Source: an uncultured delta proteobacterium (GTDB lineage Bacteria; Desulfobacterota; Binatia; Binatales; Binataceae). From it: a stretch of 64,000 nt of DNA. Positions 18,001 to 24,000 of this stretch are shown here, piece after piece. The stretch covers positions 372,001-436,000 of the forward strand of contig CAWAKE010000003.1 of assembly GCA_963782535.1 (NCBI GenBank), given 5' to 3'. Positions within the stretch are counted from its first letter, which is position 1; every line of letters begins with the position of its first letter. Made by a program: the position numbers.

Positions 18001-21000
18001 CATGACGCTCGCGCAGAGCTATCCGATTCGCACAGACACCTATGAGCTTGCAGTCTCGTGCGCGCGCCTTGAAGCGCGCGGCCCGTACAATTTGTTTCAA
18101 ATTATTGGTGAGCCGTCTGGGACTCGAACCCAGGACCCTCTGATTAAAAGTCAGATGCTCTACCGGCCTGAGCTAACGGCTCTCCGAATGAAACTGAAGG
18201 AACGGCAATCTTTACAGGGATTTGCAGTCATTGGAAGGCCCCACTGTGCACCAAATTGTGCCCGTGAAAAGATGATCTTGTATCCTCGATTGCGCAGTAA
18301 TATCTCGACTGGCCATGAACTGACGTGACAAATCGGGTGTCAAATCAACGGAAAAACAGTATCACGATGCCGCCCACTACCAATCCCGCTCCGATTAAAT
18401 ACAGATTAACGACGACACCCGGCCAACTCTTCAGCAGGCCGACGCCACCGCCCGGGAAACGCCACCAAAAGCCCTCGGGCGGATCGACGAAGTATCGCCA
18501 GCGCTTGTGTGTGCCGTAGATTATGACGCAGCCCCACACGGAGGTTGCCAGACCGAAGATCTGCGACCCGGTCATCAGCGCCAGCCTACAGCATCAGCGA
18601 AATAGCGAGTGGCGATCTTCACAAGCCGTCGCCCCCACTCTTTGAGGTTGGAAATTTACCCGTCATTGATCGTGCTTGGCTAAGTCGCGCGATGCCGGCG
18701 CGCAAATCCGCTGCGCTTGCGAGCGCGTGGCAGCGACAAATTAATCCTTGGGTGGACGGCCGTGTCAAATCCGGCGCGCGTAGCCAACGGCGGATCCCGC
18801 AAATGAAAACAGACACGAAGTACCGGCTATAAAAACCAGCGGCCCGGATTGCGTGGTCGCGCAATCCGGGCCGTCCCCTCCCTACCACCACACCGCCTAA
18901 CGCTATCCCTTAATGCCACCCGCCAATGCGTGCAGCTCCGAATTCTGACGTGTGCGACTGGGCGCCAATCCGTAACGCGTGATCATCCGATAGACCGTGT
19001 AGCGCGACGCTCCGAGGAGCTGCGCTGCGCGATGACAATTGCCGCCCGCCTCGCGCAATGCGCGCAGGAGTGCGGTCTTCGAGGCTTTATTGATCACTTC
19101 GTCGAGTGAGAAACGCCCGCTATGCGCGGCCGCTACCTCGGGCTCTTCGAGCATCCGATCCTCTGCCGTCGCGTCGCCGCCGGCCACGGTATGCAACAAA
19201 TGCTCCGGCAGGTCGTGCGCATCGAGGCGGTCGCCGTCGGTAAGCATGACGGCGGATTGCATGGCGTGGGAGAATTCGCGGACGTTGCCGGGCCAGTCGT
19301 AGGCCTGGAGGGCGGCGGCCGCACGGCGCGAGATGAAGCGGATCTGTTTGCCGAAGAGACGGTTGTAATGTTCGGTGAAATGCACCGCCAAGGCCTCGAT
19401 CGCGTCGCGCCGCTCGCGCAGCGGCGGCACCAGAATCGCGGTGGCATTCAAGCGGTAGTAGAGGTCGTCGCGGAACTCGCCCGCCTTGACCATCGCCCGC
19501 AGGTCGCGGTTGGTCGCCGCGATCAGCCGGATATTGACCTTGTAGCTATGCGCCGAGCCTACCGGCTGCACTTCATGGGTCTCGACCGCACGCAACAGTT
19601 TCGGCTGCAGCCGCAACGGCAACTCGCCAATCTCGTCGAGGAAAAGCGTGCCGCCGTTGGCCGAACGAAAGTAGCCCAGCGAATCGTCACGCGCGTCGGT
19701 AAAGGCCCCGCGCACGTGGCCGAACAGTTGCGATTCGGCCAGCGACTCGACCAGATTGGAACAGTTGAAGGTTACGAACGGTCCCTTCGGTACCGGCCCC
19801 AGCGTATGCAGCGCGCGCGCCACCAACTCCTTGCCGGTCCCCGACTCGCCATGGATCAGCACCGACGCCTTATACGGCCCCAACCGCTGCACCATCTTCA
19901 TCACTCGCCGCATGTTCGCCGACCGCACCACCATCCCTCCCACTTCCTCATTGGGAGGCGGAGTTTGATTAAGGGCAATCCAATCGTCCTGATGGCTGCA
20001 ATCCGCAGAATTTGAAGGGTTGGCGATTGTGGTCATCAGCGGCTTATGCTCCAAATTCATCATTCCACTCACTTCCTGCGTAAACATCTAGTTAGCAGAA
20101 TCTAGTCTAGTTGTGTGGTTGAGGCAAGTGGTTATTGACGCTCATTTATGTCTTGATAGCGAAATACTTTATCTGAGGTGGTAATCATCAATGATTAAGG
20201 AAAATAATGGAAATGAGATGTTTATGATTGAAGATGAGTATGATATAACGTTAATGAACGGTAAAGCATTATTAAAGACGGTCAAAGACGATAATGGCAC
20301 AAAAAAGAATAGGGTGTCCCAAATTTGCGCGTTTAATCGATCGCACCGGCGATGCTCAAGGCACGCGCTTTTCGAGGCATTTTTCGCCGTTGCCGGTGAT
20401 TTCGGAATCGCGCAGAAACACCAGCAATCGGGACATTCGCTATGTGTCAGAATGAAGATCGCGACGGATCTGCACCGAAAAGTGCCCCGTTCGAGCTGCT
20501 TAGGGCAAAGCCGTTGCAGACCGGCACGGTTGCGGCGCGAATGCCGTATTCCTGGATTTCCCGATGGTTTTGGCGGCGGCCACCCGCGGGTAATCCGGGC
20601 ATGGCAGCTGTCGCCTGCTAACTGACGGTCACGTTGAGGCTGCTTCGATGCGCCTCCGGGCTTCTATCAAAAAGGCGACAATAGCTACTCTAAGTATGGA
20701 AATGGTATCAGAACCAGACAGAGGCGCGACCGGAGGCAGTGAGGCGAAGCGCGCAGCAACATCCGGCCGTTGGTCGCGGCCGAGTGGCGCGCGCTTGCGC
20801 GATGAATCAAGCGGCGTTGAGCTTGCGGACGGCGCTCGCAGTGCCGGCGTCATCTCCCGCGTGCCGGCGTTGATCGATCCGCTTGCTACTGATGCCGAAG
20901 GGCGTCGAGAAGCGCAGACGCGTGCCGCCGTCGAGCATTTCAAAGCCGTATTGTCCGGCTTGCGCGACTACCGCATTGAGCATCTTACCCTCGAGCACCA

Positions 21001-24000
21001 TGGCCTGAACGTAAATTTTTCCGCCGTCGAGGGTGCGCGCATAGGGCCATTCGATGGGCTCGCCCACGCGAGTGAAATATTTATAGCCGCCGCACAGGTT
21101 CCAGGGCTTGAAGATTGGATAGAGCAGCAGCGCGCGAGCCTTGAGCAGACCGCTGAGAATCGCGCCGCCATAGCGCAGCAAGCGGCCGGCGCCGGCCGCC
21201 ACCGCCCACAGCTCACCGCATTCGAAGACTGTTTCCGGCGGCAGGTAAGTAAGGTCGGGTTTCGCATAGCTTTGGCTGAACATCGCCAGGTCGTGCATAG
21301 CGAAGCCGCCGATCATTTCGGGCACCATTTCGGTTTCGTCGAAAAGACCATAGAGATTGCCGAAAGCGAGATGCACCTCGCCAATAACCGATCGTCGGGT
21401 TTCGCTGAAGCCTGCGCCGCGCATCATGCGAACTTCGCTCAGACGGCGCGCGAAGATGCGTCGATCGGCGTCTGTCGTCAGCAACCGCAATTCCATGGAA
21501 CTCCTCCTCTATTCGGTCCGAACTCAGCGCTACTACAGTTGTTCACGTGTGCCAGTTAACAATAAATTCGCGGACGACCGCCGGTTACCTCGCTGACGCG
21601 CGCCTCGACGCTTTCCAAATGCCGAGTGAAAGCCACGTGCCAGCGAGCCAGGGCCGATCGAGTTACGAGCTGCAAAACGGGTTGTCCTCCGCAAGCCATT
21701 TTAGCCATCTCAGTGTAAATTTTAACACTAAAGACCAACATAGCATGGGTATGGCCATTTGGTGTTAGCTGTACACCATCTGCTGCTTCACGTCCACCAT
21801 GAATATCCAATTGGCCGCGTATAGTCGGACCAATTGAGTCGAGGAAAGAATTACGTCAGAACAAGTGTCGATTCTAGTGTAGGTACTCATCGATTTATAA
21901 CCGGTGAGCGTGTTTAATGTCGTAGTTTTCTGATATCATTGGCTCTGTGCCGCTGGCTGACGGTTACTTGCAAACTCGCTCGGTGTCAATGAAACTATCA
22001 AGAAAATTCGTCCAGTTATTGCGACCACGATGGCATTCCCAGTGAGCATGGAAGACCGCATCGAGAAGATGGTGACGCGCATTCTGGCCGAGACCCGCGG
22101 CAAGGAAGCGCAGAAGATCGAGGCATGGAAGAAGCCCAGTTCCGATATCCGTCGGTTGGTGCGGCGCGATTATGTCCGCAGCTTGCGACGGAACTTGCCC
22201 TACCGGGAGCTGCGGGCGTTGGTTGACGCGTTCAGCGAAAAGCTGCCGGGCTTCAATCGCGAAATAGTCGGGATGATGCCGGTCGAGCAGTTGGCGGCAT
22301 GGGCAGAAACCCTGGATTTACACTTTAAGGCCGCGCCGAATACTGGCGATGAAGGGCTTGCACTTAGAGGCTTCTATGTCACGCGCAAAGAGGGTATCTT
22401 AAAGCGTCCATTAATTTATGTTAACACGGCCCATCATCCATTAGCGGTTTCTTCGACTTTTTGTCATGAAGTTGGACATCATATGAGCTCCGAACTCCTA
22501 GGTGATAAGGAAGAGACACCGGTGCATTTTTTCTTCGACGCCGACTACGCCTCTCATCTAGAGGAGCCCGGTGAACTGGCGGCCGACGTGATGGTGAGTA
22601 TTGCCGGGTATCCGCAACCGATTGCGCGCAAGATCTTCGCCACGCCGTGGAAATGGGGTCTGGTCGCAAGGGCCAAGGATATGACCGAAGCGGCACTGGC
22701 CGAAGTGCGCCATCATCTTAAAGGCGTGTACGGCTTCGACTTGATGGAACGAATTCCGGCGCATCAGCGCTTGCATTACTTGTCGGGGATGATTCATTAC
22801 GCGAAACTACGGTGGGCACTGCTTGGCGAGTACGAAATATGAAAAAGAAAAGTCTGGGTTCGGTCCTGAAGAAACAGCGTGAGATTCTGGGGCTTACGCA
22901 GCGGGAGCTGGCGCTGAAACTTGACGTCAAACCGAGTCACGTGGCCTATCTGGAAAAAGATCGGCGGCGTCCATCGTTGGGGCTGGTCAGCCGCATCGCC
23001 GACGTGCTGGGACTCGAGAAGGAACCGCTTTTCCTGCTCGCCCATCCGGAAGCCAGCACCCTGTTGACGGGGCGGCGCGATCCCTCAGTGCCGAGCAGCA
23101 ATTCCGACCAGGTGTGGCGTGACTTTACCGGCAACAAGGCGATGCTGGCGCGTTACAATGTGCAGCCGCGCGAGCTCAAGGTGCTGTCGCAAGTCAACCT
23201 GCTGGGAAAAGTTGCGGCTCCGCGCCAATTCCTCTTCATCCTGAACGCCATCCGTCAGGCGGTCGAAGAAGAAGAATAGTTCGAGACGCCGTGCTGGCTG
23301 TCTCGATTGGCGATCGATAGGGCCGCCCGGCGGCTGTGACAAAGCGCGGGAAGCAAACGCATCCCTTGCACGGCCAAGTTGTCGGGGGGACGCGCTTACT
23401 GTAATAAAAACAGCTATTTAGAGAACGCCGCGCGTGAGAAGTTTTCTCCGCTGCGGCGTTCGTGTATGCGAGAGATAGACCAAGATCAAATCGCTTGGCG
23501 GGAGGCGCGAATGGCGCGCGACAAGAACTCTCGGCGCCTGTCCAAATTCTGGTGGGTTCTCGCATTCACCGCGGGTACGGCCGCTGGTGCGTTATCGCTG
23601 GAATTTCTGCACGCGCAAAATACCTTGTGGGTCATCCTCTTCCTGCTTACGGCGGCTGGTGCGGTTGCGATTTTCGAGCAGTTCGGCAATCCGGCCAACG
23701 GCGGGATTCGCCTTCCCAATAATCCAGGAAAATGGGGCAGGAGCGGTTTGCCGAATCATCCGCAGCCGCCGCGCAAGCAAGTCAACGGCAAGCGCCCGGA
23801 TCATCGGGCTCAACTCCACGCAATCACGGGCAAGAAAAGCGCCGAACCGCCATCGTCAGGCACCTCCTAGGAATTCTTCCCGGCAGCCCAGAAATCCGAG
23901 GCCGTGTTGCCGATACACCGGTGGGAATGCGGTCGCTGAGAGAACCTGGGGCCAGGCCCCGAGAGGTAGCGCGCCAACGAAATATTCAATTTGGATCAAA

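What a model noticed while it worked through the whole genome (the two positions that open the first line are those of the whole stretch)
20807..23279. Core Binataceae module: FeeM/LuxI-like synthase facing an ImmA/IrrE peptidase and Xre repressor
An unannotated 229-aa gene lies head to head with an HExxH IrrE/ImmA-type peptidase translationally coupled to an Xre repressor; the trio occurs twice here (also C4:239438-241810) and family-wide. The orphan folds like acyl-homoserine-lactone and N-acyl amino acid synthases, so the module is a signal synthase read by a peptidase that cleaves the repressor, a quorum-type circuit without LuxR. ImmA/IrrE switches are known from mobile elements and Deinococcus stress, not as a core acyl-signal receptor.
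Evidence so far: Synthase profile hits 30 of 31 family genomes, 0 of 35 other Binatia. Peptidase + Xre adjacent in 15 of 20 loci, peptidase-side cut or absent in 5. Model pLDDT 87; Foldseek top hits TofI AHL synthase E 4e-5 and FeeM (best TM 0.55/0.68), with MesI, BjaI, RpaI; Atlas leads FeeM/GNAT 0.92-0.93. Peptidase_M78 E 5e-4 and 0.08 with intact HExxH. No luxR/luxI pair annotated.
(Added by a program. Inside this text positions count along the whole contig: contig position 372,001 is position 1 of the stretch shown here. "Call 12" and the like, gene names such as g00115 and contig names such as C1 are that model's own, and its searches are not shown. The text may have been shortened before it was handed on; [...] marks where a part breaks off. 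The agent that wrote the report below was given it as the finding of a first reader that could run no searches.)

Follow-up and report, generated by a model that had tools for sequence, protein, structure and literature searches.

The report
Acyl-amide synthase paired with protease switch
Most genomes of an uncultured soil-bacterial family carry an unannotated enzyme predicted to make a fatty-acid amide head to head with a zinc protease and a repressor it would cut, and where the protease is missing a membrane sensor kinase sits in its place, so the enzyme's product is likely a signal read by two kinds of receptor.

Summary
The trio is real, occurs twice in this genome and is near-core in Binataceae (89 of 101 genomes). 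The orphan is a GNAT closest in fold to FeeM (Z 15.2). It lacks the CoA P-loop and is fused to an acyl carrier protein in 8 of 9 distant homologues. It lacks LuxI motifs, so it is probably not an AHL synthase. The peptidase keeps HExxH plus the third ligand (52 of 52) and resembles CapP/IrrE without their GAF domain. New here: three GNAT subfamilies each track their own peptidase subfamily, also outside the family. All 9 peptidase-less genomes examined put the GNAT head to head with a multi-TM hybrid histidine kinase. Downstream genes are often tailoring enzymes (desaturase, KAS III, decarboxylase). Best reading (0.4): an N-acyl-amide autoinduction loop. Close rival (0.3): a CapP/CapH-like switch that only controls an acyl-amide operon. 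No product, ligand site or cleavage is shown. New variant of a known kind; interest 0.62.

The parts
20807..21496 (-). GNAT acyltransferase of a new family (G1), FeeM-like fold; invariant R23, G64, P80, E92, W97; no CoA P-loop
21497..22029 (.). Divergent promoter region (49% GC against 55-61% in the three genes)
21968..21989 (+). Conserved TTGCAA (-35-like) box followed by a degenerate copy (3 mismatches) of the TTGAC-N5-GTCAA palindrome; candidate promoter/operator for peptidase-xre (inferred)
22030..22842 (+). M78/ImmA/IrrE/CapP-like zinc metallopeptidase; HEVGH at 22465-22479, third ligand E182; N-terminal helical extension, no GAF domain
22839..23279 (+). Xre HTH repressor with a conserved C-terminal domain of about 60 aa; start overlaps the peptidase stop
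18903..20087 (-). Sigma-54 activator with no recognised N-terminal sensory domain; clade-specific gene downstream of the GNAT (10 of 89 loci), about 720 bp away, so co-transcription is unsure
23466..23870 (+). Small membrane protein downstream of xre, kept only in the window's clade (15 loci)

Best explanation
The 229-aa gene encodes a FeeM-like GNAT predicted to join an ACP-bound acyl chain to an amine, and its non-AHL acyl amide likely activates the neighbouring zinc peptidase, which would cut the Xre repressor and so switch on the divergent synthase arm, an autoinduction loop without LuxR. Shown: gene layout, conservation, fold class, intact HExxH..E, ACP fusions, paired subfamilies, and the kinase in peptidase-less genomes. 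Inferred from CapP/CapH, IrrE/DdrO and ImmA/ImmR: cleavage of Xre and control of the divergent promoter (about 0.8). Inferred from fold, P-loop loss, ACP fusion and neighbours: a small-molecule N-acyl product (about 0.75). Weakest step, untested: the product is the peptidase's activating ligand, perhaps bound by the conserved N- and C-terminal helices that replace the GAF domain. Clade-specific downstream enzymes (desaturase, hydroxylase, KAS III plus decarboxylase) would tailor the product, giving paralogous copies separate channels. Lineages that lost the peptidase would read it through a multi-TM hybrid histidine kinase.
For: Fold: FeeM Z 15.2 (164 aligned, rmsd 3.2), RpaI 14.0, TofI 13.7, LasI 13.4, MesI 13.3; 5 of the top 7 rows are FeeM/LuxI-type. 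Canonical CoA P-loop in only 5 of 108 parsed members; its loss marks carrier-protein-dependent GNATs (PMC11685415). 8 of 9 distant homologues carry a C-terminal PP-binding domain; homology E 1e-46. Peptidase H146/E147/H150/E182 invariant in 52 of 52 and 20 of 20; best folds CapP Z 9.7 and PprI 7.3. Pairing: a GNAT is adjacent to 79 of 100 peptidase loci, Xre to 70 of 100. Peptidase clade P1 has only G1 neighbours, clades P2/P3 only G2/G3. Outside the family, 4 of 306 genomes have G3 and all 4 are among the 6 of 306 with the peptidase. In 9 of 9 examined genomes with G1 but no peptidase match, G1 faces a hybrid kinase with a conserved MASE8-like membrane domain. Gene next to G1: desaturase 26, DDxxD protein 15 of 89 loci. 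G210 has peptidase-xre-GNAT-KAS III-PLP decarboxylase on one strand.
Against: Foldseek ranks a generic acetyltransferase first, and generic GNATs reach Z 13.6, tied with the AHL synthases. No Pfam FeeM or LuxI match in 109 members. The peptidase has no known ligand-binding domain: it aligns only to residues 6-183 of CapP. Head-to-head layout is that of a regulated target in CapP/CapH, and a kinase facing the GNAT could equally regulate it. The two kinase-adjacent GNAT clades are separate in the best tree, but one origin is not rejected (AU p 0.053), and 5 of the 9 genomes are one genus. 21 of 100 peptidase loci have no adjacent GNAT. No ACP-like motif in any G1 locus, and the context of the ACP fusions was not found. 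The window's own downstream gene is a regulator, not a tailoring enzyme. G2/G3 keep a CoA-type motif in 7 of 9 parsed.
Confidence: 0.4

Rival explanations
1. Output only: the peptidase/Xre pair is a CapP/CapH-type stress switch with an unrelated trigger. The GNAT arm is its regulated operon and makes an N-acyl amino acid or aminolipid (surfactant, antimicrobial or membrane lipid) that does not feed back.
For: CapH/CapP-like pairs lie upstream of, and opposite to, the operon they control. A palindrome sits between the genes in 15 of 74 loci against 0.7 in shuffles. Downstream desaturase, OlsE-like hydroxylase and thioesterase fit lipid products. OlsB-type aminolipid synthases and FeeM are related acyl-ACP transferases (PMC11631085). 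The peptidase lacks a sensor domain.
Against: A target operon should vary, as it does for CapP/CapH. Here the GNAT is the one constant partner across three subfamilies and stays when Xre leaves the locus (15 + 4 of 100 loci). G2 and P2 co-occur even when unlinked (both 11, neither 13, discordant 2 of 26 genomes; 8 of the 11 are one genus). The ssDNA-binding groove needs the GAF domain, which is absent.
Confidence: 0.3
2. Protein-level partner: the GNAT acylates, or binds as an acyl-thioester sensor to, the peptidase or Xre and so couples cleavage to the acyl-CoA/ACP pool. It would play the part that RapI plays for ImmA or that the GAF domain plays in IrrE.
For: Strict subfamily pairing fits direct contact as well. 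Protein acetyltransferases are among the fold hits. G2/G3 keep a CoA-type motif. ImmA is activated by a protein partner (PMC6540685). The M. tuberculosis regulator 6cyj/6d2s is the third fold hit of the peptidase; that it binds CoA is recalled.
Against: Nine genomes keep G1 intact with no peptidase match. Homologues are fused to ACP. G3 is followed by KAS III in 2 of 4 loci and by a decarboxylase in one.
Confidence: 0.2
3. Three-component toxin-antitoxin or defence module: the GNAT is a toxin (for example an aminoacyl-tRNA acetylase) released when the peptidase cuts Xre.
For: COG2856-Xre pairs were proposed as parts of three-component TA systems, and GNAT-Xre pairs are listed as TA-like (PMC2701414). 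The C4 copy is flanked by transposases.
Against: Near-core distribution; divergent rather than operonic layout; neighbours are housekeeping and lipid genes; no plasmid match for the peptidase or for the GNAT part of the fusion protein; only 2 weak viral matches; the GNAT survives alone beside a kinase.
Confidence: 0.05

Closest known systems
CapP/CapH (CBASS regulators), IrrE(PprI)/DdrO, ImmA/ImmR
   Same: HExxH..E zinc peptidase of the same fold (Z 9.7 and 7.3) beside an Xre repressor with a C-terminal domain; placed opposite to the adjacent operon.
   Different: No C-terminal GAF domain, so no ssDNA groove; a cysteine between H150 and E182 in only 3 of 50; extra N-terminal helices of about 60 aa; near-core rather than defence- or element-linked; constant partner is an acyltransferase.
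FeeM / Nas N-acyl amino acid synthases
   Same: Best structural match (Z 15.2, TM 0.55/0.68); no CoA P-loop; invariant glutamate on the fourth strand (E92, equated with FeeM Glu94/95 by position, inferred); ACP link through fusions.
   Different: 13% identity; no PF21926 match among 109 members, best E 0.024 in one distant homologue; paired with a protease switch or a kinase rather than with exosortase systems (title only, seen).
LuxI/LuxR AHL quorum sensing
   Same: Synthase fold (RpaI, TofI, LasI, MesI Z 13-14); constant synthase-regulator pair with variable cargo.
   Different: No DxFD-type motif (0 of 109), no Arg at the LasI R104 position (0 of 109), Trp in the N-terminal segment in 2 of 109; no LuxR ligand domain in 5 genomes.
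ICEBs1 RapI-PhrI-ImmA-ImmR
   Same: A cell-density signal controls an M78 peptidase that cuts an Xre repressor (PMC6540685).
   Different: Peptide signal, read by a separate TPR protein and inhibitory; mobile element. Here the candidate signal is an acyl amide and no relay protein is seen.
Synthase plus membrane kinase pairs (CqsA/CqsS, LqsA/LqsS, LuxM/LuxN, RpfF/RpfC; recalled, not from a call)
   Same: Lipophilic-signal synthase adjacent to a multi-TM hybrid histidine kinase, as in the peptidase-less lineages.
   Different: Different synthase family; sensor domain is MASE8-like by Atlas features only (0.92, 42% of members), and homology to those kinases was not tested.

Membership tests
M78 (COG2856) ImmA/IrrE peptidase | HExxH plus downstream Glu zinc ligand | tested here: met
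   H146, E147, H150, E182 invariant in 52 of 52 and 20 of 20
M78 (COG2856) ImmA/IrrE peptidase | PF06114 match above the curated cut-off | tested here: inconclusive
   25 of 50 members match at E<=0.1, best 3e-4; window protein 13.1 bits against cut-off 22; 5 of 58 homologues carry a precomputed PF06114
M78 (COG2856) ImmA/IrrE peptidase | Peptidase-domain fold of CapP/IrrE | tested here: met
   CapP Z 9.7 (157 aligned, rmsd 3.7), PprI 7.3; Foldseek ranks 1-5 are CapP/PprI/IrrE, though with E>0.01
M78 (COG2856) ImmA/IrrE peptidase | Cleaves the cognate Xre repressor | not testable with these tools
   Needs an in vitro or in vivo cleavage assay
IrrE/CapP ssDNA-sensing subfamily | C-terminal GAF domain forming the ssDNA groove | tested here: not met
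   The model ends in helices at residue 270 and aligns to CapP 6-183 and PprI 22-177 only; GAF role
LuxI AHL synthases | PF00765 match | tested here: not met
   0 of 109 members at E<=0.1
LuxI AHL synthases | N-terminal Trp and DxFD acidic motif (recalled), Arg after the strand-4 Glu (LasI Trp33, Glu101, Arg104 in PMC9654057 table 1) | tested here: not met
   DxFD-like 0 of 109; Arg at position 95 in 0 of 109; Trp in residues 24-36 in 2 of 109; register inferred from sequence, not from a residue-level superposition
LuxI AHL synthases | LuxI-like fold | tested here: met
   RpaI Z 14.0, TofI 13.7, LasI 13.4, MesI 13.3, tied with generic GNATs at 13.6
FeeM-type N-acyl amino acid synthases | PF21926 match | tested here: not met
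   0 of 109; one distant homologue 14.9 bits against cut-off 27
FeeM-type N-acyl amino acid synthases | GNAT fold with CoA P-loop replaced (carrier-protein type) | tested here: met
   FeeM top at Z 15.2; P-loop absent in 103 of 108; criterion from PMC11685415
FeeM-type N-acyl amino acid synthases | Makes N-acyl amino acids from acyl-ACP | not testable with these tools
   Only indirect: ACP fusion in 8 of 9 distant homologues
Xre/HTH_3 repressors | N-terminal HTH_3 domain | tested here: met
   PF01381 E 1.5e-13, 51 bits against cut-off 23
Quorum-sensing circuit | Self-made diffusible signal activates the receptor and induces its own synthase | not testable with these tools
   Genomic pattern only

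The most novel reading that the evidence does not exclude
Binataceae run a family of parallel autoinducer channels in which a new FeeM-like synthase makes a tailored N-acyl amide that directly switches on an ImmA/IrrE-type protease. This would be the first small-molecule-gated receptor of that class. Some lineages have swapped it for a membrane histidine kinase, and the synthase has moved, fused to its own ACP, into distant bacteria.
Probability: 0.3. Interest if true: 0.85.

Novelty: new variant of a known kind. Interest (0 to 1): 0.62.

Why it matters
The characterised M78/Xre switches in the papers read respond to DNA damage (ssDNA, RecA) or to a relay protein. If this one is gated by a self-made acyl amide, it adds a new receptor class to bacterial cell-cell signalling and gives a widespread uncultured soil family, with no LuxR ligand domain in the five genomes tested, a signalling chemistry. 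Even on the weaker reading it defines a new acyltransferase family with no Pfam or NCBIfam model, linked to varied tailoring enzymes, so a source of undescribed N-acyl amides. Three small genes suffice for a test in E. coli.

Tried and rejected
Complex prediction of peptidase with GNAT: score 0.00, verdict 'no answer'; not used either way. Sequence-profile search of the PDB with the GNAT alignment: 0 hits; peptidase alignment: nothing significant. Pfam and NCBIfam on the GNAT: none. Context of the ACP fusions: the metagenome scan returned 7 loci, none a fusion; plasmid hits covered only or mainly the ACP part; viral contigs none. Regulon search: the palindrome is not enriched in this genome's intergenic DNA (22 sites against 11-21 in 8 shuffles), and it overlaps a -35 box, so it may be promoter rather than operator. 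Promoter scan 3 against 1.8 expected, no terminator. PF00765 search found 0 of 5 but its control did not ring. RNA runs: low-depth contigs over peptidase, xre and the next gene in three runs, two of them with identical pieces, one short piece on the GNAT; too weak to use. Atlas for the DDxxD protein: only unnamed clusters at 0.9 and a terpene-synthase lead at 0.86. Earlier findings: nothing. The careful GNAT tree did not finish; the quick tree is used. AHL synthase membership rejected on motifs; TA reading given low weight.
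Full report
1. Observation. A second trio lies on C4 at 33-40% identity, between transposase genes. The 229-aa protein (G1) is found in 89 of 101 family genomes and in 0 of 175 other genomes of the class. Record titles of related loci name Binataceae. Among 63 loci fetched by G1 alone, 52 have the peptidase head to head, 3 are cut, 5 face a histidine kinase and 3 have neither.

2. The orphan. It has no Pfam match in 109 aligned members and no NCBIfam match. 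The AlphaFold model (pLDDT 89) is a GNAT. Foldseek does not separate subfamilies: a generic acetyltransferase is first, TofI third, and FeeM has the best TM-score at rank 37. The full structural scan puts FeeM first (Z 15.2, 164 aligned), then RpaI 14.0, TofI 13.7, a generic GNAT 13.6, LasI 13.4 and MesI 13.3, so only FeeM stands more than 1 Z above the generic rows. The CoA-binding P-loop is present in 5 of 108 parsed members; its replacement is described as a mark of carrier-protein-dependent GNATs such as FeeM and SbzI (PMC11685415, passages). The exhaustive profile search gave 133 representatives. One of 18 of them scanned carries a C-terminal ACP. A search from it found 9 proteins, 8 with a PP-binding domain and the ninth a partial protein named from a Parachlamydiaceae MAG. 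The carrier serine motif is intact in the 7 full-length fusions viewed, and homology to G1 is certain. LuxI motifs are absent: no DxFD-like motif and no Arg at the LasI R104 position in 109 of 109 (motif partly recalled, partly from PMC9654057 table 1). Inference: an acyl-ACP-type N-acyltransferase with an amine acceptor other than SAM.

3. The switch. HExxH and E182 are invariant (52 of 52). The model (pLDDT 87.5) matches CapP (Z 9.7), PprI (7.3) and an M. tuberculosis regulator (6.6), over their peptidase and linker parts only. CapP and IrrE bind ssDNA in a groove that needs the GAF domain (10.64898/2026.05.16.725639, first third read; PMC12828697, passages). That domain is missing here, so the trigger is open. 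Xre has HTH_3 and a conserved C-terminal domain. A palindrome TTGAC-N5-GTCAA occurs with at most 1 mismatch in 15 of 74 intergenic regions, against a mean of 0.7 and a maximum of 3 in 50 shuffles. In the window's clade it follows a conserved TTGCAA box in front of the peptidase. The window's own copy has 3 mismatches, and no genome-wide regulon is seen.

4. GNAT and peptidase travel together. Wider profiles found the peptidase in 82 of 94 family genomes and 6 of 306 others. A remote GNAT homologue (G3; hhalign E 6.5e-5 for one member, not significant for another) occurs in 4 of those 306, all among the 6. It is adjacent in 3; the fourth lies on a 3.9-kb contig. A further GNAT subfamily (G2) is in 56 of 94 family genomes; the joint G2/G3 profile matches G1 at probability 80%. 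In the peptidase tree, the 82-row clade has only G1 or no GNAT neighbour, and the 22-row clade only G2/G3 or none. G2 and its peptidase P2 co-occur even when unlinked: both in 11, neither in 13, discordant in 2 of 26 genomes, though 8 of the 11 are one genus. Of 107 peptidase loci, 100 had enough flank; 79 have an adjacent GNAT and 70 an adjacent Xre. I chose these loci by hand, so they are not a random sample.

5. Receptor swap. Twelve family genomes had no peptidase match (6 candidates scored per genome). Two also lack G1 and one was not examined. In the other nine, G1 stands head to head with a hybrid histidine kinase. Its N-terminal membrane domain has conserved polar residues, up to six hydrophobic segments and MASE8-like features (a lead). 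G026 has a kinase-type copy and a peptidase-type copy whose peptidase is interrupted by a stop. Two more loci keep the peptidase and have the kinase downstream of G1. The kinase-facing G1 proteins form two separate clades with 100% support, but a single origin is not rejected (AU p 0.053). This genome has three such kinases, none beside G1.

6. Cargo. The gene after G1 is clade-specific (89 loci): membrane di-iron desaturase-like in 26 (PF00487 E 8e-39; best NCBIfam model an amino-acid hydroxylase, below cut-off), a WIDDFFD protein of unknown family in 15, a sigma-54 activator in 10, an opposite-strand lipoprotein in 7, a kinase in 3, a MacB permease in 1 and other in 27. Single loci have an OlsE-like hydroxylase or an acyl-CoA thioesterase. 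In G210 the order on one strand is peptidase, xre, G3, KAS III, PLP decarboxylase, which reads as acyl donor plus amine plus transferase. KAS III also follows G3 in G317.

7. Mechanism. I commit to an acyl-amide autoinduction loop at 0.4. A constant synthase beside interchangeable regulators, with variable cargo, is the pattern of synthase-receptor pairs. The step that the product activates the peptidase is untested. The output-only rival (0.3) is close, because CapP/CapH pairs always face their target operon (10.1101/2022.04.27.489752, passages and section 12). A direct protein partner (0.2) and a TA module (0.05) follow.

8. Known systems and novelty. COG2856-Xre and GNAT-Xre pairs were catalogued separately as TA-like (PMC2701414, passages). 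Quorum control of ImmA through PhrI/RapI is known (PMC6540685, passages). FeeM, OlsB and LuxI are grouped as related N-acyltransferases (PMC11631085, passages). Nine searches (listings and abstract openings) showed no paper on this trio, on an acyl-amide-gated M78 peptidase, or on signalling in Binatota. The library lacks most subscription papers, including a 2025 M78 review cited, and no supplements were read. Verdict: a new variant of a known kind (protease/Xre switch) joined to a new acyltransferase family; categorically new only if the ligand step holds.

9. Unpublished genomes. The tallies include genomes marked unpublished (G017, G042, G044, G059, G072, G087, G263, G396). One of the two discordant P2/G2 cases is G087. 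No other claim rests on them alone.

Noticed in passing
L072:8480-9436, L078, L079, L081, L083, L086, L088, L090, L092, L093 (gene after the GNAT): Unannotated family of about 320 aa with a conserved WIDDF[FL]D motif, suggesting a class I terpene/isoprenoid synthase fold; no Pfam or NCBIfam match; 15 loci.
   Followed up: partly
P0160, P0257-P0264: GNAT-ACP fusion family in lysine-rich proteins, one partial member named from a Parachlamydiaceae MAG; nested within G1 in the quick tree, suggesting transfer; context not found.
   Followed up: partly
L119:4035-8467 (G210): One-strand cluster peptidase-xre-GNAT-KAS III-Orn/DAP/Arg decarboxylase: a candidate N-acyl-amine pathway and the best single test case.
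   Followed up: partly
G000 C2:499859-500329 and C7:131135-131602: Two stand-alone Xre paralogues with the same C-terminal domain and no adjacent peptidase; possible further substrates.
   Followed up: no
L120, L121, L125-L129, L140, L162: P2 peptidases often lie next to beta-lactamase-like serine hydrolases (PF00144), possible amide hydrolases that could clear a signal.
   Followed up: no
window 24000-26512: Low-GC stretch (47%) with two unannotated ORFs and a transposase-like gene (25430-26512, IS630-like by recall), inserted between the membrane-protein gene and the amidohydrolase that are near neighbours in relatives.
   Followed up: no
L001 (C4:234700-242400): The second trio is flanked by IS3-, IS110- and IS6-type transposase genes, and its peptidase has the longest branch in the tree (1.49), hinting at relocation or relaxed selection.
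   Followed up: partly
L055:8891-10542; L066; L078: Tandem peptidase duplication in one locus; peptidases split by stop codons in two others.
   Followed up: no
L130, L131: A lone P1 peptidase sits directly upstream of an rpmH-rnpA-yidC-like gene run (read from the translations), without GNAT or Xre.
   Followed up: no
window 28992 onward; L001, L003-L005, L008-L010: A polysaccharide export-like gene block lies 5-10 kb beyond xre in the window's clade and near the C4 copy; a possible regulated target (not annotated in detail).
   Followed up: no
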